From IMG/VR virus record IMGVR_UViG_3300048996_000173, positions 1 through 60,985 of that record: a DNA stretch of 60,985 nucleotides; one strand, written 5' to 3'. Positions 46,516-57,960 of this stretch are shown piece by piece. The notes under the pieces were generated by a model. It searched no databases, was not told the origin of the DNA, and worked only from the letters and a program-made list of their open reading frames with translations. Position numbers and translations under genes: made by a program. Numbering within the stretch: the stretch's first letter is position 1; the number at the start of each line of letters is the position of its first letter. Origin of the DNA: a virus (Duplodnaviria > Caudoviricetes).

Positions 46516-46774
46516 CAAGGAACTGCTCGCCGAGCTGGAGAGGGCGGAGAAGAAGGCTCTTGGCAACGACAAGCCCTGTAGACTGTGTGTGGCGCTGATG
46601 GACCTGGAACCGGGTGCGATCGATGCGGTCGAAGCCGTGCTCCAGAAGCGCCACCCGAATCGGGACAGGTACCTTCTCGGGGAGAGAAAGCTCCATCCCA
46701 TCCTGAATGCCGCGGGAATCAAGGTGACCCAGGTTGACATTCAGGTCCACCGAGAGGAAGGCCACGGAGCGTGA
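46502..46774 (+). CDS. Small Zn-binding protein
   Basis: CRLC...HREEGH, typical of genes found next to phage metallophosphoesterases. Confidence 0.65.
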   Translation: MGKRSKELLAELERAEKKALGNDKPCRLCVALMDLEPGAIDAVEAVLQKRHPNRDRYLLGERKLHPILNAAGIKVTQVDIQVHREEGHGA

Positions 46775-48081
46775 CCACCGACACCAAGAAGCTGATCGCG
46801 GACCTGAATGACGCCGTCCGCGCCAAGATCCAGACCCCGCCGGCGCCCATCGCAGCCCAGCGAGCCCCGAAGGACTGGAAGCCGGGCGTCAAGTACGACG
46901 GCCGCGGCCAGGTCTCGGAGATCACCACGGTAGCCATCCCGGGCGACCAGCTGGCCGCTGAGGACTATCAGCGCGTGGTCGAGGAAATGGGTGTCACGGT
47001 TCCGGCCGGCCTGGTACTCGTGCTGGCCGAGGCGAGCTTCGACCCCTTCGCCTGGACGCGCGAGGAGCCCTTCTGGATCGACGAGAAGGGACACCAGCGC
47101 AAGACCCCGGCGACCACTCAGGCTGGCTGGCGCTACCGCTTCAAGACCGCTTCAGCAGCTCTCGTGGCAGCCTCCGACGAGGACCTCGAGAAGCTTCAGG
47201 CCGCCGCTCGCCGAGCGGTCCGGGCGCGACCCCGTACGACTCCGTTCGACGGTGTCACGCAGGTCATCGTGCTCGGGGACATCCAGGCTGGCAAGGTCGA
47301 TCGCCGCGGCGGATCCGCCGAGCTCCTGGTCCGCCTGGAGCATGCGCTGGCCGAGATCCTCCGTCACGTGAAGCGGACCAAGCCGAACGAGATCCTGCTG
47401 ATCGACGGCGGCGACGGCATGGAGATGTTCGAGTCCTCGCCTGGCGCCGACCGGACCAACGACCTGTCGCAGACCGAGCAGATCCGCCTGTGGCGCCGCG
47501 TCCTGATGTCGTGGGTCCGCGAGCTGGCCAAGGTCGGCGTGACCGTGAAGGTCATCTCGGTGCCGTCCAACCACTGCTCGGTGCGCCGTGGGAAGCAGAA
47601 CATGGGCACGCCCGCCGACGACTACGGCATCGAGGTCCTGACGCAGGTGGCCGACATCTGCGCCGAGAACCCCGACGCGTACGGCCACGTCGAGTTCTAC
47701 TCACCCGGCGAGCACGAGGAAGCCCTGGCGATCACCCTGGCCGGCGGAAAGACCCTCGGCGTCGCACACGGCCACCAGAAGACCCGGCCCGAGGCCATTC
47801 CGGCCTACCTGGCCGGCCAGGCTGCCGGCCGGACCCCGATCGGCGACTGCGACATCGCAGTCTTCGGCCACTGGCACAACCTCCGGGTGCAGACCTGGGG
47901 CGACGACCGGTGGTTCTTCATCGCGCCGACCATGGACTCCGGCTCGAGCTGGTTCGCCAACAACACCGGCACCGAGTCCGCTCCCGGTGTGCTCACCTTC
48001 GTCGTCGACAGCCGCGGCTGGCGCGACATGCACGTCGCCTGGGCCCGCGAGGGCATCGACTACGAAACCCTGGAGGCCTGA
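46771..48081 (+). CDS. Calcineurin-like metallophosphoesterase (Mre11/SbcD-like)
   Basis: GDIQ, GD, SNH, AHGH and GHWH motifs. Confidence 0.85.
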   Translation: MTTDTKKLIADLNDAVRAKIQTPPAPIAAQRAPKDWKPGVKYDGRGQVSEITTVAIPGDQLAAEDYQRVVEEMGVTVPAGLVLVLAEASFDPFAWTREEPFWIDEKGHQRKTPATTQAGWRYRFKTASAALVAASDEDLEKLQAAARRAVRARPRTTPFDGVTQVIVLGDIQAGKVDRRGGSAELLVRLEHALAEILRHVKRTKPNEILLIDGGDGMEMFESSPGADRTNDLSQTEQIRLWRRVLMSWVRELAKVGVTVKVISVPSNHCSVRRGKQNMGTPADDYGIEVLTQVADICAENPDAYGHVEFYSPGEHEEALAITLAGGKTLGVAHGHQKTRPEAIPAYLAGQAAGRTPIGDCDIAVFGHWHNLRVQTWGDDRWFFIAPTMDSGSSWFANNTGTESAPGVLTFVVDSRGWRDMHVAWAREGIDYETLEA

Positions 48082-48082
48082 C

Positions 48083-48244
48083 GTGACCAGCCACTCGTCG
48101 CACCGCCGCTGGAAGGGTTGTCAGCTGTGCAAGCCCCACAAGAACCGCGACCGAGGTCAAGCTGAGCGGCAACCCTTCGCCGCCCTGCGCAAGCTCGGCA
48201 AGCGCCGGCGCGTCTCCCGCCGAGAGATCGGAGACGACCAGTGA
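48083..48244 (+). CDS. Small basic CxxCxxH protein
   Basis: GGAGG RBS and GCQLCKPHK. Confidence 0.6.
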   Translation: MTSHSSHRRWKGCQLCKPHKNRDRGQAERQPFAALRKLGKRRRVSRREIGDDQ

Positions 48245-48414
48245 CCGCCGAGGAACCGACCCTGGCCGAGCTGGAGGAAGCGATCACCCACGTGGCCGCG
48301 ACCGCCGGCCGGTACAGCGACGTCGACCCGAAGAAGGCCCGGCTGCACGAGGAGCTCAACCACCTGCTCGAGGACCGGGACCGCCTCTTGACGGAGCGAC
48401 CGGCGATCGGCTAA
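48241..48414 (+). CDS. Small helical hypothetical protein
   Basis: GTGA overlap. Translation TLAELEEAITH...LNHLLEDR. Confidence 0.6.
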   Translation: MTAEEPTLAELEEAITHVAATAGRYSDVDPKKARLHEELNHLLEDRDRLLTERPAIG

Positions 48415-48417
48415 GCT
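48388..48417 (+). promoter_or_regulatory. Promoter for the ncRNA
   Basis: TTGACG-18-TAAGCT. Confidence 0.7.
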
Positions 48418-48601
48418 CGGTACTGCCGAACAGCGCTTCTAGAAGTGGAAGACCTCGGTGCTCTTCCTGAGACGCAAGGGTTGAGCGGTGGCGGTGCAGG
48501 ATCGGAGTCGGGAAACCTGCACGCGGTCACCTGATGAACTGATCAGGACCAGATGGGCCGGTACCCTTGCAGGGTAGTCGGAGACAGGGTCTAGATCGGC
48601 A

Positions 48602-48672
48602 ATCGGTGCAGCATGGCGGAGAGCGGTCACCCGCGGAGGGTGGCCACGCGGGTTCGAGTCCCGTCACCGATG
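48602..48672 (+). tRNA. tRNA-like element with non-canonical anticodon arm
   Basis: ATCGGTG/CACCGAT acceptor, GCGGG-TTCGAGT-CCCGT T-arm, and an 8-bp arm with a GCGGA loop. Confidence 0.5.
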
Positions 48673-48707
48673 CGAAGTTCGGCGGCTTAGTCCGTCGGGC
48701 CTTAAAT

Positions 48708-48801
48708 TCGCCATTAGCTCAGTCCGGTAGAGCACCGCTTGGCCAGCCCCGCAGTGTCGGGGGTAACGCGGAGGTCCTAGGTTCAAATCCTGGATGGCGA
48801 A
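48708..48801 (+). tRNA. tRNA-like element (Thr-GGU-like) with ~20-nt insertion in the anticodon loop
   Basis: TCGCCAT/ATGGCGA acceptor, GCTC/GAGC D-arm, AGGTC variable loop and CTAGG-TTCAAAT-CCTGG T-arm. Confidence 0.65.
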
Positions 48802-49054
48802 CGAGGTAACGAGGGATCCCGAAACCCCATCCCGCAGTGTGGAAGAGAGGGTAAGAGGGTGAGGTTCGACCTCGGTGCGGCGACCGAAAACGCCCTTCTG
48901 GTCCACGACAGGACTCGCCTTGGCGGCGCGTATCCGTCTACGTGACCCGAGCGCACTCGGGCATTCAGGCCCCGCCGGTATGCATGCTCCCCACGGTTCG
49001 ACCGTGGAACTTGGAAGCAACCGGTGGGGTCTGTCTCATTCTGCGGACAGTCTA

Positions 49055-49083
49055 TTGACCCAATCGGCAGCAGGCTGTAGGTT
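49055..49083 (+). promoter_or_regulatory. Promoter for the RNA ligase operon
   Basis: TTGACC-17-TAGGTT. Confidence 0.65.
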
Positions 49084-49119
49084 TTGAGCATCAGAACTTG
49101 CAACCACCTGGAGGTTTCC

Positions 49120-50301
49120 ATGCATCTGTATGACCTGGTCGACGTCAACGAGACGACCTGGCTCTACGAGAACGGCTGGCTGAACGAGACCGAGCACCCG
49201 ACCGAGCCGCTGCGCATCCTGAACTACTCCAAGCGCGCGCAGACTGCCGTGGAGCCGTGGTCGGTCGAGTCGCTGCACCACTGCCGCGGCCTGATCTACA
49301 ACACCACCAACGGTGAGATCGTCGCCCGGCCGTTCCCGAAGTTCTGGAACTACGGCCAGGCCGGCGCCCCGATGATACCCCTGGATGCCCTTGTCCAGGT
49401 GACCGACAAGGCCGATGGCTCGCTCGGCATCATGTATCGCCGACCGAGCGACGGCGAACTGGCCATCGCCACGCGGGGCTCGTTCCTGTCGGAGCAGGCC
49501 GTCCACGCTACGCAGACCCTGTATCTGAAGCACAACGACTTCGAGCCTAATCCCGACTGGACGATGCTGTTCGAGATCGTCTACCCGGAGAACCGGATCG
49601 TGCTCGACTACGGCGCTCGCGACGACGTGGTGCTGCTGGGTGGCGTCTTGACCCACTACAAGGACCTGGTGATCCTGGGCCCGAACGGCTTTCCGGAGTG
49701 GAAAGGCCCGAAGACCGAGATCATCTACGAGGGCAACTTCGACGGCGCGCTGGCGCTGAAGATGGACCGGCCGAACTCCGAGGGCTACGTGATCCGCCGG
49801 ATGATCGACGGCGGCATGGTGAAGCTCAAGCAGGAGGACTACAAGGCCCTACACGCCGCGCTCTTCGGGCTGAACCAGCGCCGGATCTACGAGATCGTCA
49901 TGGCTGGCCGCGGCCTCGGCCAGCCGGGCCAGTACGAAGGCGTGCCCGAGTTCGACACCCTGCTGGCCCAGCTGCCCGACGAGTTCCACGACTGGGCGCG
50001 CAACCAGCGGCACCAGATCCTCGAGACGATCCGGAAGCGCGCGGATGACATCTTCGAGGAGTACGGCGCGATCGTCGAAGGCTGGAGCGTGATCTACGAG
50101 GTAGACGACCAGCGGAGCCGGAAGAAGGCATTCGCGGCCGAGGTCGCCAAGGTCAAGACGCCGTATGCGTGGGCGCTGTTCGCCATCTTCAACGGCGCCG
50201 GCCGCGACGACATCGAGGACCAGCTGCTGCACCACCTGGACAAGGACAAGGAGATCGACGCCAAGGTCCGTCCGGTCAACCAGCCGGTCGAGGAGGTCTG
50301 A
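49120..50301 (+). CDS. T4 Rnl1-like RNA ligase
   Basis: CRGLI, RPFPKFWN, KADGSLG, TRGSF, FEIVYPENRIV, EGYV and VKLK. Confidence 0.92.
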   Translation: MHLYDLVDVNETTWLYENGWLNETEHPTEPLRILNYSKRAQTAVEPWSVESLHHCRGLIYNTTNGEIVARPFPKFWNYGQAGAPMIPLDALVQVTDKADGSLGIMYRRPSDGELAIATRGSFLSEQAVHATQTLYLKHNDFEPNPDWTMLFEIVYPENRIVLDYGARDDVVLLGGVLTHYKDLVILGPNGFPEWKGPKTEIIYEGNFDGALALKMDRPNSEGYVIRRMIDGGMVKLKQEDYKALHAALFGLNQRRIYEIVMAGRGLGQPGQYEGVPEFDTLLAQLPDEFHDWARNQRHQILETIRKRADDIFEEYGAIVEGWSVIYEVDDQRSRKKAFAAEVAKVKTPYAWALFAIFNGAGRDDIEDQLLHHLDKDKEIDAKVRPVNQPVEEV

Positions 50302-50302
50302 C

Positions 50303-50473
50303 GTGGCCTGGGGTCGGAAGAAGAAGCAGGACATCAAGGGCGGCAAGGGCAAGCCGAAGGAGCCGTTCGTCCCGTGCGGGAAGCCGATCCACCGGCTCGC
50401 CAAGCGGGAGAAGAACGGCTCGGTGACCACCCCGATCTGCCAGAAGCAACGTGGACACTTTGGAGGTTGCTGA
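50303..50473 (+). CDS. Small basic Cys/His protein
   Basis: GGAGG RBS and CG...C...GHFGGC. Confidence 0.55.
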   Translation: MAWGRKKKQDIKGGKGKPKEPFVPCGKPIHRLAKREKNGSVTTPICQKQRGHFGGC

Positions 50474-50474
50474 C

Positions 50475-50663
50475 GTGAGCAAACAGATCAGAATCCACGA
50501 CGACGGTGACGAGATCGTCTGGATCGACGTCGACGGAGAGCAGTTGCACGAGCTGAACCACGACCTCGATGGCTGGGATGGCATGAAGCGGGGGATCGAC
50601 CTGGTCGAGAAGCTCGCCAAGGCCTTCGGCGTCGAGGTCAGCTACGAGCAGGACATCGTCTGA
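50475..50663 (+). CDS. Small acidic hypothetical protein
   Basis: GGAGG RBS. Confidence 0.65.
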   Translation: MSKQIRIHDDGDEIVWIDVDGEQLHELNHDLDGWDGMKRGIDLVEKLAKAFGVEVSYEQDIV

Positions 50664-51616
50664 TGTCCACACTCGTTGTAACGAGAGGCCTGCCCGGATC
50701 CGGCAAGACGACGTACGCCAGAGAGTGGGTGGCCACCTGGATCGAGACGCGGTCGCGCGTGAACCGGGACGACCTGCGCAAGATGCTCCACAGCGGCCCG
50801 AACGGCTACTCGCGCGAGCTCGAGAACGCGATCACGGCCGCCCAGGAGGCGCAGGTCACCGCGCTGCTGAAGGCTGGTCGCGATGTCATCGTCGACGACA
50901 TGAACCTCCGCCAGCAGTACGCGCGCCGGTGGGCCAAGATCGCCGACCTAGCCGGCGCCGAATTCGACGTCGTCGACCTGACCAACATCCCGGTCGAGGA
51001 GTGCATCCGCCGCGACGCCGCCCGTCTGCCGGAGGAGCGCGTCGGAGCGCGATTCATCACCGAACAGCACGTCCGCTACCTGGCCGGCAAGACGCACCCG
51101 CTTCCCTGGCCGACCAACGACTACGGCGTCGTCCCCGAGCCGTACGTGCCGCCCGGCACCGGCAAACAGGCGATCATCGTCGACCTCGACGGGACGGTCG
51201 CTCTGCTGAACGGTCGCAGCCCGTACGACGTCACCACGGTGAGCAGGGACCTGCCCAACGCACCGGTGATCCGGATCGCGCGGGACATGATGGGCATCGC
51301 TGACGAGTACGGCGACACCCTGCACATCCTCTTCACCAGCGGCCGGAGTGAGCTCGCCCGCGAGGACACGGTGGGCTGGCTGGCGGAGCACTTCTTCGGC
51401 GGTTCGGGCTATGCGTTCGAGCGCGGATGGGCCCGCCTGTTCATGCGGCCGGAGGGCGACGGCCGGCGCGACTCCGAGCTCAAGCTCGAGATCTTCAACG
51501 AACACATCCGCAACGAGTACGACGTCGTGCTCGCGCTCGACGACCGGAACCAGGTCGTTGACTTGTGGCGCTCGCTGGGACTAACGTGCTTGCAGGTTGC
51601 GCCGGGCGACTTCTGA
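50663..51616 (+). CDS. pseT: Polynucleotide kinase / 3'-phosphatase (T4 PseT-like)
   Basis: GLPGSGKTT and RDDLR in the kinase domain. DLDGT, SGR and DDRNQVV in the HAD domain. Confidence 0.93.
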   Translation: MSTLVVTRGLPGSGKTTYAREWVATWIETRSRVNRDDLRKMLHSGPNGYSRELENAITAAQEAQVTALLKAGRDVIVDDMNLRQQYARRWAKIADLAGAEFDVVDLTNIPVEECIRRDAARLPEERVGARFITEQHVRYLAGKTHPLPWPTNDYGVVPEPYVPPGTGKQAIIVDLDGTVALLNGRSPYDVTTVSRDLPNAPVIRIARDMMGIADEYGDTLHILFTSGRSELAREDTVGWLAEHFFGGSGYAFERGWARLFMRPEGDGRRDSELKLEIFNEHIRNEYDVVLALDDRNQVVDLWRSLGLTCLQVAPGDF

Positions 51617-53327: not shown

Positions 53328-53804
53328 GTGGCCATCAAGCTCACGTCACCGGTCTTCGGGCAGCCCGCCGGCGCCACCTTCTCAGGGCCGGCCAGCGTCG
53401 TACCGTGGCTGATCGCCGAGGGTTACGCCTTCGACGACGCCAACGTGACCGACCATATCAACCAGCGTGCGGTCCTGCCGGCCGACGACCCTCAGCTCGC
53501 CGTGAACCGCGAGGCACCGGGGCAGCCCTTCGGCCTCAGTGGCCGGCTCGCCGTAGTCACCGCGTCCGCGATCGTCCCGAACACCGGACTGGCTGCGGGC
53601 GGCACGGATGTCGTCATCACCGGCGACCACATGGTCGACGTGACCGGGGTGACCTTCGGTGGCGTCGCCGCGACGAACGTCGTGGTCGTCGACGACCAGC
53701 ACGTGAAGTGCACCACCCCCCCGCACGCCGCCGGCGCGGTCACCGTGGTGATCACGGACTCCGACGGCTCGGCGACCAAGCCGACCTTCTACACCTACAG
53801 CTGA
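53328..53804 (+). CDS. IPT/TIG (Ig-like) domain protein, probable virion decoration
   Basis: PNTGLAAGGTDVVITG...VTFGG...TPPHAAGAVTV...FYTY. Confidence 0.8.
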   Translation: MAIKLTSPVFGQPAGATFSGPASVVPWLIAEGYAFDDANVTDHINQRAVLPADDPQLAVNREAPGQPFGLSGRLAVVTASAIVPNTGLAAGGTDVVITGDHMVDVTGVTFGGVAATNVVVVDDQHVKCTTPPHAAGAVTVVITDSDGSATKPTFYTYS

Positions 53805-56291: not shown

Positions 56292-57358
56292 CCCAGGGCT
56301 ACTTCGCCGAGGCGATGACGGACGAAGCGCAGGTCGAGCGGCAGCAAAGCACTGGCCGACCGCTCATCAAGCAGCCGGACGGCTCCGTCCGGGCGTACAC
56401 CCGCGCCAGCTCGCTCGGGGACTACCTGACCGATCAGGAGTTCCTCAAGCAGTGGGAGATGATCTACCTGGCCATCGGGCTCGGCCGCCGGCCGGACCTC
56501 GCCGACCAGTGCGCAGTCGAGCCGTACACCACCGGATTCGACGAGCCGCCGCGGCTGGTCAAGGCCGAGTCGAAGCGCAACGTCCTCTCGATCATCCGGC
56601 GCGTGCTGGACGCGATGAAGATCCACGAGCGGGCCGACCGCGGCACCGTCGCCCACGCGATCACCGAGACCGGCTACGACGGGTACGTTCCACCGGCGCT
56701 GGTCGGCGAACACGCGGTCTTCGGTGCGTTCATCGATCTCAACCACATCATCCGGCTCGGCTCTGAGATCTTCGTCGTCAACGACGAACTGAAGGTGGCC
56801 GGCACCTTCGACCACCTCTGGTACGTGCCGAGCCTGCGGTCGGTGGTGATCGGCGACACCAAGAACGGCCGAAACAAGAACAGCCTGGGCTTCGGTGTCC
56901 AGTTCGCCGTCTACGCGAACAGCGTGGTCTACAACGCCGAGACCGGCGAGCGCATGACGCTCGAGGAGTACGTCGCACTGGCGCTCGACGAGCTGGGTCT
57001 GGGGATCGATCCGATGCCGCCCATCAACCGCAAGGTCGCTCTGCTGCTCTCGCTGAAGGAGCGTCAGGCCAAGCCGTCCGACGTCGACATCGAGTGGGGC
57101 TACCGGATGGCCAAGCTGGCCGCCACGGTCCGCGATGCCCGGGACGACACTGCCGGCCGGGTGCTGCAGTCCGAGCTCGTGCAGGGCGTCAAGGGCAAGA
57201 TGGCCCAGGAGATCACCCTGGCCGCGCTGGCTGAGCGCATCGAGGCGACCGAGAACGCCGGCGAGCTCGCCGTGCTCTGGCGCCACCACAAGGACATCTG
57301 GACCCCCGAACTGACCACCCGCGCCGCCGCGCGCAAACTCACCCTGGAGGCATCGTGA
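56288..57358 (+). CDS. PD-(D/E)xK exonuclease (Cas4/RecB-like)
   Basis: YTRASS, GTVAH, AGTFD, GDTKNG and QFAVYA. Confidence 0.8.
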   Translation: MTQGYFAEAMTDEAQVERQQSTGRPLIKQPDGSVRAYTRASSLGDYLTDQEFLKQWEMIYLAIGLGRRPDLADQCAVEPYTTGFDEPPRLVKAESKRNVLSIIRRVLDAMKIHERADRGTVAHAITETGYDGYVPPALVGEHAVFGAFIDLNHIIRLGSEIFVVNDELKVAGTFDHLWYVPSLRSVVIGDTKNGRNKNSLGFGVQFAVYANSVVYNAETGERMTLEEYVALALDELGLGIDPMPPINRKVALLLSLKERQAKPSDVDIEWGYRMAKLAATVRDARDDTAGRVLQSELVQGVKGKMAQEITLAALAERIEATENAGELAVLWRHHKDIWTPELTTRAAARKLTLEAS

Positions 57359-57960
57359 GCAAGTTCAAGGTCGGCTTCGACATCGACGACGTCCTGATGC
57401 CTTGGTATGCCCGAGCTCACGAGGCCTGCAAGGAGGCCGGGCTCACCGGCGGCGTCGAGCCGACCACCTGGCGCCCGTTCGAGGAGTACCCGGACTGCAC
57501 TCAGGAGCAGTGGCTCGAAGCGCTCGACGTCGTCACGCTGAAGGGCACGCTGTACCTCGAGACGGCGCCGGACGAGGACGCGGTCCGAGCACTCCGGTCG
57601 CTCTACTTCGAGGGCCACGAGGTGCACCTGATCACCGCTCGGGGCTTCATCGGCCACAGCCGGCTGATCAGCCAGCACACCGTCCGTTGGCTGGAGCTGA
57701 ACGCGATTCCCTACAAGACCCTGTCGTTCACGCAAGCGAAGGGCCCAAAGGCCAAGCAGCTCGGGCTGGACTGGTTCATCGACGACAACGAGAAGAACTG
57801 GCGCGAGGTGGGTGAGGCGATCAATCCCTGCTGGGCCGAGCCGCGCTCATTCCTGCTGGATCGCCCGTGGAACCAGAACGTCAACACCTTCCCCCGAGTG
57901 CGGGTAAGGTCTGTCCAGGAGTACGTCGACATCATCACCAAGGAGGCAAACCGTGAGTGA
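57355..57960 (+). CDS. HAD 5'(3')-deoxyribonucleotidase-like protein
   Basis: DIDDVL, ITAR, IDD and PWN. Confidence 0.85.
   Translation: MSKFKVGFDIDDVLMPWYARAHEACKEAGLTGGVEPTTWRPFEEYPDCTQEQWLEALDVVTLKGTLYLETAPDEDAVRALRSLYFEGHEVHLITARGFIGHSRLISQHTVRWLELNAIPYKTLSFTQAKGPKAKQLGLDWFIDDNEKNWREVGEAINPCWAEPRSFLLDRPWNQNVNTFPRVRVRSVQEYVDIITKEANRE

What the first reader, a model, noticed from the sequence alone, without database searches (positions are those of the whole stretch)
48388..49083. Large ornate ncRNA (~620 nt) with its own promoter
Seen in sequence: an ORF-free region between promoter TTGACG-18-TAAGCT and the next promoter at 49055. A 5' domain is closed by GCCGA..TCTAGA (48425-48443) pairing with TCTAGATCGGC (48590-48600). 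It contains GTGCAGG/CCTGCAC, CCTGAT/ATCAGG and TACCCT/AGGGTA stems. Two tRNA-like modules follow. A 3' domain has AGGGTGAG/CTCGCCTT, CCCGAG/CTCGGG and GGCCCCGCCGGT/ACCGGTGGGGTC stems, plus two extra TTCGA T-loop hairpins. Established: GOLLD and ROOL RNAs are large phage RNAs often associated with tRNAs. Inference: this is either a divergent member of those classes or a new one.
Basis: partly seen in the sequence, partly recalled or inferred. Interest (0 to 1): 0.8.

Follow-up and report, generated by a model that had tools for sequence, protein, structure and literature searches.

The report
Compact phage array of tRNA-like RNAs
This gene-free 700-base stretch of a soil phage genome is most likely a small operon making two tRNA-shaped RNAs that cannot read codons, placed just before the phage's RNA-repair genes, rather than one giant ornate RNA.

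Summary
The interval 48415-49110 is non-coding. No frame exceeds GC3 0.74, against 0.90-0.95 in the flanking genes. It lies between a conserved 57-aa ORF and a T4-type RNA ligase (Rnl1-like) plus polynucleotide kinase-phosphatase.

It holds two tRNA-shaped modules. Module A (48602-48673) was called tRNA-Pro by ARAGORN but is not a Rfam tRNA. Module B (48708-48801) scores 50.4 bits as a Rfam tRNA, but 29 nt stand where the model has 9.

No GOLLD, ROOL or tmRNA match appears even at E<=10. Fold z-scores are weak (-1.5 to -1.95).

In related phages (ligase 41-48% identical) the same position holds arrays of up to 8 tRNAs, odd tRNA-like genes and TLD-only tmRNAs. These arrays share a similar promoter, a leader hairpin and an end hairpin.

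A closer relative, seen only in run X2, carries modules A, B and the 3' part in different neighbourhoods. This argues for separable modules.

Module B keeps its fold against its L025 counterpart (8 of 25 pairs changed on both sides). An 88-nt stretch of the trailer is identical in X2.

Verdict: a reduced tRNA-array-type operon of anticodon-less tRNA mimics. Function is unproven and no transcript data exist. It is a new variant of a known kind.

The parts
48388..48417 (+). Likely promoter, TTGACG-18 nt-TAAGCT. The stop codon of the 57-aa ORF lies inside the -10.
   Evidence: Read. L023/L024 have TTGACA-18-TAAGGT after the homologous small ORF. The strict sigma-70 scan does not report it. No transcript data.
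48424..48601 (+). Leader ('5' domain'). A block of about 75 nt (48455-48530) is shared with the leader of the L023/L024 tRNA array. The rest has no known relative.
   Evidence: BLAST 78% over 55 nt (48474-48528 against L023 2115-2168). Alignment A4. z -1.59.
48494..48522 (+). Conserved leader hairpin: GTGCAGG, a 15-nt loop (AUCGGAGUCGGGAAA), then CCTGCAC.
   Evidence: 21 of 21 cells paired in WIN/L023/L024. One pair changed on both sides (A-U to C-G) and one on one side. The shuffle control is not significant (163 of 500), because only two independent sequences exist.
48602..48673 (+). Module A, a non-canonical tRNA-shaped RNA. It has acceptor ATCGGTG/CACCGAT, a poor D arm, an 8-bp hairpin 48625-48645 with loop GCGGA, and a T arm GCGGG-TTCGAGT-CCCGT.
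   Evidence: ARAGORN calls tRNA-Pro(cgg). The Rfam tRNA model does not report it; the best clan hit is tRNA-Sec at 14.7 bits. In X2, T48627C turns U.G into C-G, and the loop gains 4 nt and one substitution. The TLD-only model R2 gives 17 bits, E 0.37.
48674..48707 (+). Spacer between the two modules.
   Evidence: Read. No relative found.
48708..48801 (+). Module B, a tRNA cloverleaf (acceptor, D arm, T arm TTCAAAT). The anticodon arm is replaced by a long arm: 4 bp, then an 8/5-nt internal loop, then 5 bp (48747-48751/48758-48762), then a 6-nt loop.
   Evidence: Rfam tRNA 50.4 bits, with 29 nt where the model has 9. Against L025 131-219, 49 of 49 cells are paired and 8 of 25 pairs changed on both sides. 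Model R1 finds the long-arm form only in the window and L025. In X2, C48750T keeps the pair as U.G. The flanks match the L023 'tRNA-???(caaa)' at 85%.
48802..48859 (+). Variable first part of the trailer.
   Evidence: 16 listed substitutions and 2 insertions against the X2 relative within 48818-48859. It begins CGAGGTAACG, like L023 CAGGGTAACG.
48860..48978 (+). Conserved trailer core. It includes hairpin GAGG-TTCGA-CCTC (48861-48873), hairpin CCCGAG-CGCA-CTCGGG (48946-48961) and GCATTCAG (48961-48968).
   Evidence: No difference from the X2 relative is listed in 48860-48978, and at least 48860-48947 (88 nt) can be judged. The ligase start shows 22 differences in 196 nt. AAGG-TTCGAC-CCTT stands in the L023/L024 trailer. 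GCATTCAG+hairpin stands in L014, L022, L025 and L026.
48966..49043 (+). Terminator-like GC hairpin (CAGGCCCCGCCGG ... CCGGTGGGGTCTG) with a T-arm-like hairpin at its tip (48991-49007), followed by the tail TCTCATTCTG.
   Evidence: The base of the stem and both flanks are conserved in L014 (18 of 18 and 31 of 37 nt). The stem is also kept in L022, L025 and L026, with G.U/G-C/A-U and C-G/U-A exchanges (read). The tip (48979-49104) is replaced by 108 other letters in X2. The strict terminator scan does not report it.
49055..49122 (+). Promoter-like TTGACC-17-TAGGTT, GGAGG 49110-49114 and the ATG 49120 of the RNA ligase gene.
   Evidence: The ligase is PF09511, E 6.2e-10.
49120..51616 (+). Neighbouring RNA-repair genes: Rnl1-like RNA ligase 49120-50301, a small ORF 50451-50663, and polynucleotide kinase-phosphatase 50663-51616.
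   Evidence: PF09511. phrog_505, 1.3e-86. AAA_33 plus HAD_PNKP, 1.9e-44.

Best explanation
The interval is one short transcription unit of the tRNA-array type: promoter near 48388-48417, end hairpin at 48966-49043. It is the reduced counterpart of the tRNA gene arrays that related phages carry between the same small ORF and the same RNA ligase/polynucleotide kinase genes.

Its roughly 620-nt primary transcript would be cut by the host's tRNA-processing enzymes (RNase P at the 5' side, 3' trimming and CCA addition; inferred). The products would be two tRNA-shaped RNAs plus a leader and a structured trailer.

Neither module has a usable anticodon loop. Module A has a 5-nt loop, or a 7-nt loop without U33, and its length differs in the nearest relative. 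Module B has a 37-nt extended arm. They therefore cannot decode.

The most likely role (inferred, not shown) is tRNA mimicry in the contest over host tRNAs that the adjacent Rnl1-Pnkp repair pair also serves. They would act as baits or competitors for tRNA-targeting nucleases or tRNA-binding factors, much as the TLD-only tmRNAs of related arrays are thought to titrate SmpB.

Shown: non-coding nature, tRNA-like folds, synteny, modularity, conservation. Inferred: transcription, processing, function.
For: 1. Non-coding. GC3 is at most 0.74 in every frame, against 0.90-0.95 in the neighbours.

2. Context. RNA ligase PF09511 and Pnkp with kinase plus HAD phosphatase domains lie directly downstream.

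3. Synteny.
- Of 13 loci that encode ligase relatives and had upstream DNA (L002, L003, L014, L022-L031), 9 carry tRNA or tRNA-like genes just upstream on the same strand. L002, L003, L029 and L030 carry none.
- L023/L024 have 8 ARAGORN tRNAs in about 2 kb.
- The 57-aa ORF before the window's promoter is 44% identical over 50 aa to the ORF end before the L023 array, and an exonuclease-like gene precedes it.
- The promoter form TTGAC(A/G)-18-TAAG(G/C)T is shared.

4. Shared non-coding blocks, although the ligases are only 41-48% identical.
- Leader hairpin.
- Module B flanks, 85%.
- End hairpin with GCATTCAG and CTGTCTCA in 5 of 5 high-GC loci that reach that point: window, L014, L022, L025, L026.

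5. Module B fold. 49 of 49 cells are paired and 8 of 25 pairs changed on both sides against L025; 1 of 500 shuffles reaches this, and slid controls give 0-1.

6. Modularity. In run X2, module B is followed by unlike sequence, the trailer is preceded by tRNA-Lys(CTT)-like letters, and the letters before module A are unlike the window.

7. Constraint. Modules A and B differ from X2 at 5 of 80 and 6 of 88 letters, with pair-keeping changes. 48860-48947 shows no difference, while the ligase start shows 22 of 196.

8. Not a known large RNA.

9. Precedents.
- TLD-only tmRNA in phage DS6A, said to inhibit tmRNA perhaps by titrating SmpB (passages of PMC4131195; PMC11915505).
- T4 RNAC and RNAD, transcribed from its tRNA region, role unknown (passage of PMC3014915).
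- Phage tRNAs as an answer to tRNA-targeting defences (title and the start of the abstract of PMC10264068 in the search listing, plus reference-list passages).
Against: - There is no expression evidence of any kind.
- The promoter and terminator are not reported by the consensus scan (0 and 0).
- Each conserved element rests on only 2-5 sequences. For the leader there are two independent ones, and its covariation is not significant (163 of 500).
- Module A has no relative beyond the X2 contig. Neither Rfam tRNA nor the TLD model separates it from background.
- The 88-nt identical block could reflect recent recombination rather than selection.
- The X2 evidence comes from short contigs of one run and gives differences, not full sequences.
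- The mimic or bait function is pure inference. A non-functional remnant would look similar in several respects.
- A single unprocessed RNA cannot be excluded without end mapping.
Confidence: 0.6

Rival explanations
1. Decaying remnant. The array lost its working tRNAs by deletion, and what remains (modules A and B, T-arm-like hairpins, spacers) is pseudogene debris with no function, still lying between a promoter and a terminator.
For: - Relatives have 3-8 canonical tRNAs where the window has none that Rfam accepts with a normal anticodon loop.
- Module A's loop differs in length and sequence in X2.
- T-arm-like GGTTCGA hairpins are scattered through the trailer.
- The trailer abuts a different tRNA in X2, as expected after a deletion between similar T-arm or acceptor ends.
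- Fold z-scores are ordinary.
Against: - Module B keeps all 25 pairs and the same 8/5 internal-loop geometry as L025, with 8 double changes, although the ligases of these phages are under 50% identical.
- The changes in X2 keep pairs.
- Modules A and B are at least as conserved as the ligase coding DNA, and 88 nt of the trailer are identical.
- A complete 61-kb phage genome keeps 700 non-coding bases.
Confidence: 0.2
2. One large structured RNA of about 620 nt, a new class with GOLLD-like layout (5' domain, tRNA-bearing linker, conserved 3' domain), acting as a whole.
For: - There is a single promoter-like site and a single end hairpin, with no internal TTGAC box.
- Here the 3' part is also the best conserved.
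- GGTTCGA hairpins are enriched.
Against: - No GOLLD or ROOL match even at E<=10.
- z-scores are -1.5 to -1.95.
- Leader-trailer complementarity is not above shuffles (57 of 200).
- One proposed long stem is broken by three one-sided changes, and the 5' closing stem is not kept in X2.
- Modules are shuffled among relatives. In L023 the homologous leader block and the end hairpin are about 1.8 kb and 8 tRNAs apart.
Confidence: 0.1
3. Module A is an ordinary phage tRNA-Pro(CGG) that supplies the common CCG codon. Module B is a tRNA with a short insertion that is removed. The locus would then be a plain two-tRNA operon.
For: - ARAGORN calls tRNA-Pro(cgg) at default settings.
- With introns allowed it calls module B tRNA-Tyr(gta) with a 22-nt insert between positions 33 and 34.
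Against: - Module A lacks U8 and U33 and has a 3-pair D stem. Rfam tRNA does not report it.
- In X2 the loop is 4 nt longer and the CGG triplet is interrupted by the change at 48635.
- The L025 counterpart of module B is read as Ala(cgc) with an insert at position 38, so there is no consistent anticodon or insert site.
- Bacterial tRNA-Tyr has a long variable arm (recalled), whereas module B has 5 nt.
- No bacterial route for removing a 22-nt insert is known (recalled).
Confidence: 0.05
4. A cis-acting leader or attenuator of the ligase-Pnkp operon. The structured RNA and its end hairpin would control read-through into the repair genes.
For: - The end hairpin lies 80 nt before the ligase start.
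- Its flanks (GCATTCAG, CTGTCTCA) and a TGTC-N10-GACA palindrome next to the ligase promoter are conserved.
Against: - The ligase has its own promoter-like site and Shine-Dalgarno sequence after the hairpin, in the window and in relatives.
- The tRNA arrays at this place in relatives are genes, not leaders.
- No riboswitch or T-box match was found.
Confidence: 0.05

Closest known systems
Phage tRNA gene arrays next to T4-type RNA ligase (Rnl1) and polynucleotide kinase-phosphatase. The loci L014 and L022-L028/L031 found here, and the T4 tRNA region with the small RNAs RNAC and RNAD.
   Same: Same genomic position and strand (small ORF, promoter, leader, RNA genes, end hairpin, ligase, Pnkp). 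Shared promoter form, leader hairpin, module B flanks and end hairpin. T4 also transcribes two small RNAs of unknown role from its tRNA region (PMC3014915 passage).
   Different: The window has no canonical tRNA. It has only two anticodon-less tRNA-shaped modules in 0.7 kb, instead of 3-8 tRNAs in 1-2 kb.
TLD-only tmRNA (mycobacteriophage DS6A; also L022 696-775, L023 3214-3292 and L024 2513-2593 here)
   Same: A tRNA-shaped phage RNA without an anticodon, encoded among phage tRNAs. Module A shares the overall layout: acceptor, loose D region, an 8-bp hairpin in place of the anticodon arm, and a T arm.
   Different: Module A lacks G3:U70 (it has C3-G70) and the inner CCGC...GCGG hairpin. It scores only 17 bits (E 0.37) with a model built from the three TLD-only genes, the same as ordinary tRNAs. 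No Rfam tmRNA match.
GOLLD (RF01998) and ROOL (RF03087) large ornate phage RNAs
   Same: Phage-borne, near tRNA genes. The layout of 5' part, tRNA-bearing middle and better-conserved 3' part recalls GOLLD (passages).
   Different: No covariance-model match at any threshold tried. Shorter, with ordinary fold energy, no support for inter-domain helices, and modules that are separable in relatives.
YrlA / bacterial Y RNA-like tRNA mimics (RF02553)
   Same: A tRNA-mimicking non-coding RNA linked to RNA repair or quality-control genes.
   Different: The Rfam hit is 20.7 bits against a gathering score of 69. It spans the T arm of module A and the D arm of module B, so it is an artefact of two adjacent tRNA-like genes. 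YrlA is a permuted tRNA mimic closed at the acceptor end (recalled), whereas here the acceptor ends are open.

Membership tests
GOLLD RNA (RF01998) | Match to the Rfam covariance model | tested here: not met
   0 matches at gathering score on the whole window. Not among the 6 matches at E<=10 on 48300-49150.
GOLLD RNA (RF01998) | Phage or prophage location near a tRNA island | tested here: met
   The window is a complete virus record. The locus is the counterpart of tRNA arrays in relatives.
GOLLD RNA (RF01998) | Large multi-domain fold supported by covariation | tested here: inconclusive
   Too few homologs. z is -1.49. Leader-trailer duplex is no better than 57 of 200 shuffles. One long stem is broken in X2.
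ROOL RNA (RF03087) | Match to the Rfam covariance model | tested here: not met
   No match.
tRNA (RF00005), module B | Cloverleaf with acceptor, D and T arms at or above the gathering score | tested here: met
   50.4 bits against a gathering score of 29, E 1.1e-09. All 25 pairs are kept against L025.
tRNA (RF00005), module B | 7-nt anticodon loop with U33 and a defined anticodon | tested here: not met
   29 nt stand where the model has 9. Intron-allowing calls give different anticodons and insert sites in the window (Tyr, 33/34) and L025 (Ala, 38).
tRNA (RF00005), module A | Match to the tRNA model and a canonical anticodon loop | tested here: not met
   Only tRNA-Sec at 14.7 bits, E 8.2. ARAGORN accepts it as Pro(cgg) but draws C8, G33 and a 3-pair D stem. 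The loop is 4 nt longer in X2.
TLD-only tmRNA | G3:U70 alanine identity pair | tested here: not met
   Module A has A1-U72, U2-A71 and C3-G70. The three TLD-only genes of relatives all have G3:U70.
TLD-only tmRNA | Match to the tmRNA model or to a TLD-only model | tested here: not met
   Model R2 gives the training genes 91-94 bits, module A 17 bits (E 0.37), and ordinary tRNAs 17-28 bits. No Rfam tmRNA hit.
YrlA (RF02553) | Match at the gathering score | tested here: not met
   20.7 bits against 69, spanning two separate modules.
YrlA (RF02553) | Neighbouring Ro60/Rsr (TROVE) gene | not tested
   Only 23 different ORFs of the window were scanned and none showed TROVE. The rest were not scanned.
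Phage tRNA-array operon beside Rnl1/Pnkp | Same-strand RNA genes directly upstream of the ligase and Pnkp genes | tested here: met
   9 of 13 relative loci show the same arrangement.
Phage tRNA-array operon beside Rnl1/Pnkp | Transcribed as a unit and processed into small RNAs | not testable with these tools
   No RNA run holds the stretch. Only sequence-level promoter and hairpin evidence exists.
T4-type tRNA repair pair | Rnl1-family ligase plus a bifunctional kinase-phosphatase | tested here: met
   PF09511, 39.7 bits against a cut-off of 28.3. AAA_33 at 71.1 bits plus HAD_PNKP at 151.7 bits. phrog_505, 1.3e-86.

The most novel reading that the evidence does not exclude
Modules A and B, together with the near-invariant 90-120-nt trailer RNA, would form a new class of phage counter-defence RNAs. 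They would be anticodon-less tRNA mimics made to bait or jam host tRNA-targeting nucleases, or tRNA-binding factors such as SmpB, and they would work with the adjacent Rnl1-Pnkp.

The boldest version concerns module B. Its 22-nt hairpin sits exactly at the 33/34 junction, where anticodon nucleases cut and Rnl1 seals. It could be cut out and resealed by the phage enzymes, which would be protein-only tRNA splicing in a bacteriophage.
Probability: 0.12. Interest if true: 0.75.

Novelty: new variant of a known kind. Interest (0 to 1): 0.45.

Why it matters
Phage tRNA genes are now read as weapons against tRNA-cleaving host defences. T4-type ligase and kinase are the classic repair answer. This phage kept the repair genes and the array's promoter, leader and end hairpin, but it kept only tRNA-shaped RNAs that cannot decode. 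One of them has a long-arm design that recurs, with compensatory changes, in a distant relative.

If these RNAs are made and stable, they would show that phages deploy tRNA decoys as well as spare tRNAs. Together with the TLD-only tmRNAs and other odd tRNA-like genes in the related arrays, they would offer a set of natural tRNA mimics to test against anticodon nucleases, SmpB and processing enzymes.

The practical lesson for genome scans is that an ORF-free, stem-rich gap next to an RNA ligase is more likely a tRNA-type array than a giant RNA.

Tried and rejected
- blastn of 48388-49083 against 50,697 phage records: no match.
- IMG/VR relatives by ligase (2 loci, 37-39%), primase (10 loci, 28-35%) and Pnkp (2 loci): only L014 is informative.
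- DNA search in four relatives' records: only the L014 record matches.
- Pattern scans:
  - GTCTCATTCTGYGGACA gave one chance hit (L020, a coding-looking contig with no tRNA) besides the L014 record.
  - GCATTCAGSCCC..GGGNCTGTCTCA gave only the L014 record among viral contigs and 0 in genome contigs.
  - The trailer core 19-mer gave 0 viral hits and 26 genome-contig hits. None of the 26 extends beyond 19-27 nt, so they are chance.
  - The leader pattern gave 0 viral hits.
- Arthrobacter phage Seahorse has ligase plus Pnkp but no annotated RNA gene upstream.
- The look-up of sequencing runs: no RNA holder listed.
- Read laying: no X2 cover of 48368-48571 at 80% likeness. X3 and X4 give only short pieces under 90% alike at the edges.
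- RNAalifold on the end hairpin was thrown off by a 1-nt offset between two sequence groups, so I read the stem by eye.
- The intron reading of module B was rejected for lack of consistency with L025.
- The YrlA hit was rejected as an artefact of two adjacent modules.
- The TLD-only reading of module A was rejected.
- A tmRNA-tag-like reading of the L014-type trailer (GACGAGAAACTAGCAGCT) was rejected. There is no stop codon, and the motif is not kept in L014.
- Supplements of papers were not opened. Those of PMC9569102 and of the GOLLD papers may list actinobacterial GOLLD variants that I could not compare.
- The paper by Morgado et al. on GOLLD in Mycobacterium tRNA arrays was seen only as a reference entry.
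Full report
**What is there**

The window is a complete 60,985-bp virus record with high G+C. The stretch 48415-49110 has no credible ORF. The four flanking genes have GC3 of 0.90-0.95, while no frame inside 48424-49087 exceeds 0.74.

Upstream lie an exonuclease-like gene (46771-48081, phrog_284) and a 57-aa ORF (48241-48414). Downstream lie three genes:
- a T4 Rnl1-family RNA ligase (49120-50301; PF09511, E 6.2e-10);
- a small ORF;
- a polynucleotide kinase-phosphatase (50663-51616; phrog_505 1.3e-86; AAA_33 plus HAD_PNKP).

**Known families**

Rfam at gathering score finds nothing in the whole window. At E<=10 on 48300-49150 it finds six things:
- One is significant: tRNA (RF00005), 50.4 bits, at 48708-48801, with 29 nt where the model has 9 (module B).
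- The stretch 48602-48671 gets only tRNA-Sec at 14.7 bits. ARAGORN calls 48602-48673 tRNA-Pro(cgg) (module A).
- A YrlA hit (20.7 bits against a gathering score of 69) joins the T arm of A to the D arm of B and is an artefact.
- GOLLD, ROOL and tmRNA do not appear.

Fold energies are not unusual: z -1.49 for 48415-49060, -1.59 for the 5' part and -1.95 for the 3' part. The consensus scan reports no promoter or terminator.

**Relatives**

The phage is an orphan. There is no DNA match among 50,697 phage records, and hallmark proteins are 28-35% identical to IMG/VR contigs.

Ligase relatives at 34-54% identity were found in IMG/VR (L014, via Pnkp) and in metagenome contigs (L022-L031). Of 13 such loci with upstream DNA, 9 carry tRNA or tRNA-like genes just upstream on the same strand. 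L002, L003, L029 and L030 carry none, and phage Seahorse has none annotated.

L023 and L024 hold 8 ARAGORN tRNAs (Met, Glu, an odd 'caaa' one, Tyr, Asp, Phe, Asn, Lys) in about 2 kb of non-coding DNA. That stretch begins with TTGACA-18-TAAGGT, and before it come a homolog of the window's 57-aa ORF (44% over 50 aa) and an exonuclease-like gene. The window's interval is therefore the positional counterpart of a tRNA array.

**Conserved non-coding pieces**

Although the ligases are under 50% identical, several blocks are shared.
- Window 48474-48528 matches the L023/L024 leader just before their first tRNA (78%). Its hairpin GTGCAGG/CCTGCAC becomes GTGTCGG/CCGGCAC, with one double and one single change and 21 of 21 cells paired. 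With two independent sequences the control is not significant (163 of 500).
- The two flanks of module B match the L023 'caaa' tRNA-like gene at 85%.
- The trailer's GAGG-TTCGA-CCTC hairpin recurs as AAGG-TTCGAC-CCTT in L023/L024.
- The end hairpin, with GCATTCAG before it and CTGTCTCA after it, is present in the window, L014, L022, L025 and L026. Its stem exchanges G.U, G-C and A-U at one pair and C-G/U-A at another (read).

**Module B**

L025 131-219 has the same design:
- a cloverleaf;
- then a 4-bp stem;
- an internal loop of 8 and 5 nt;
- a 5-bp G+C stem;
- and a small loop.

On the two sequences, 49 of 49 cells pair and 8 of 25 pairs differ on both sides. Only 1 of 500 shuffles reaches this, and slid controls give 0-1.

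A model built from them finds the long-arm form only in these two loci among 16 sources. It scores ordinary tRNAs lower.

ARAGORN with introns allowed reads the window's module as Tyr(gta) with a 22-nt insert at 33/34. It reads L025's as Ala(cgc) with an insert at 38. There is therefore no consistent intron reading.

**Module A**

Module A has a good acceptor stem and T arm, a poor D arm, C8 and G33, and an 8-bp hairpin with loop GCGGA.

Relatives carry TLD-only tmRNA genes: L024 2513-2595 at 48.6 bits on RF00023, and L022 696-777 at 44.2 bits. L023 3214-3292 is a third. All three have G3:U70. This kind is known from phage DS6A.

A model of the three gives module A only 17 bits (E 0.37), like ordinary tRNAs, and module A lacks G3:U70. 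It is not a member of that family.

**A closer relative**

Run X2 (DNA contigs) holds pieces 88-94% like the window.
- One contig covers 48597-48676. T48627C turns a U.G pair into C-G. The hairpin loop gains A and TTC and has a G>A change, so no anticodon is conserved. The letters before 48597 are unlike the window.
- A second contig covers 48716-48803 (C48750T keeps a pair as U.G) and then runs on unlike.
- A third contig has tRNA-Lys(CTT)-like letters, then 48780-48978, then 108 other letters in place of 48979-49104, then the ligase start.

Modules A, B and the trailer therefore occur in other neighbourhoods. The window looks like a version shortened by deletion between similar tRNA 3' ends (inference).

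In the third contig, 16 substitutions are listed in 48818-48859. None is listed in 48860-48978, of which at least 48860-47 can be judged, since differences near a piece's end are not listed. By comparison there are 22 in 196 nt of ligase DNA.

**Large-RNA test**

Leader and trailer are no more complementary than shuffles (57 of 200). In L023 the homologous leader block and the end hairpin are about 1.8 kb apart.

GGTTCGA is enriched (3 of the window's 14 matches lie in 48651-49001). This fits either remnants of T arms or reused T-loop hairpins.

**Reading**

The best-supported account is a compact tRNA-array-type operon. Its products are two tRNA-shaped, non-decoding RNAs plus a structured leader and trailer, beside the phage's tRNA-repair genes. 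Transcription, processing and the proposed mimic or bait role are inferred.

Rivals are a functionless remnant, a single new large RNA, a plain two-tRNA operon, and a leader for the ligase operon.

Literature seen:
- title and start of the abstract in the search listing, plus reference-list passages, of PMC10264068;
- passages of PMC4131195, PMC11915505, PMC3014915, PMC9569102 and 10.1101/2024.12.08.627333.

What I say about T4 PrrC and repair at position 33/34, the class II shape of bacterial tRNA-Tyr, and YrlA topology is recalled.

Noticed in passing
L024 2513-2595; L022 696-777; L023 3214-3292: TLD-only tmRNA-like genes of about 80 nt, with no tag reading frame, inside the tRNA arrays of three related metagenome contigs. 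All have G3:U70, A73 and a conserved inner CCGC..GCGG hairpin. 7 of 21 pairs changed on both sides.
   Followed up: yes
L023 2529-2604, L024 1837-1912, L022 198-268: tRNA-like genes whose anticodon loop holds CCAAAC. The loop has 8 nt in L023/L024, which ARAGORN calls 'tRNA-???(caaa)'. They are the short-arm counterparts of the window's module B.
   Followed up: partly
L022 985-1056 and L026 195-266: tRNA-Lys(CTT)-like genes with an aberrant 9-nt T loop (CGGGA-TG.C.GAAT-TCCCG). Rfam scores them at 43-46 bits but ARAGORN does not call them.
   Followed up: no
L023 3466-3551, L024 2708-2793: An 86-nt tRNA-Asn(GTT) with an extra roughly 13-nt stretch in the variable region and a T loop ATCGAAA.
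   Followed up: no
L014 147-234, L022 1057-1152, L025 220-325, L026 419-509: A conserved trailer of about 100 nt after the last tRNA(-like) gene (CAGTGACAGCCNGGATAGATCGCT ... variable hairpin ... GACGAGAAACTAG ...), with compensatory changes in the variable hairpin. No Rfam match at E<=0.1. It is a candidate small RNA and differs from the window's trailer except at its 3' end.
   Followed up: partly
window 49032-49049: A palindrome TGTC-N10-GACA just after the end hairpin and before the ligase promoter. It is kept in L014, L022, L025 and L026, where it overlaps the -35 box TTGACA in L022 and L025. It may be an operator or a small hairpin.
   Followed up: no
window 48708-48801: The Rfam run at gathering score missed a tRNA match that scores 50.4 bits in the permissive run. 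The fast filters probably fail on the 20-nt insertion, so odd tRNA-like genes can escape routine annotation.
   Followed up: partly
L031 1241-1327: An 87-nt tRNA-like gene (Rfam tRNA 33.6 bits) with an enlarged anticodon region, in a low-G+C phage contig that also has a tRNA array before its ligase. Non-canonical tRNA-like genes are therefore not confined to the high-G+C group.
   Followed up: no
window 53328-53804 and 57355-57960: A protein with an IPT/TIG domain (PF01833, 9.3e-16) and an NT5C-type 5'-nucleotidase (PF06941, 2.2e-08) lie downstream of the repair genes.
   Followed up: no
L022 20-40: A GC hairpin (GGCCCCAG-GAAGAT-CTGGGGCC) directly before the first tRNA of the L022 array. It has a different sequence from the window/L023 leader hairpin but stands in the same place, so a 5' hairpin before the first tRNA may be a general feature.
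   Followed up: no
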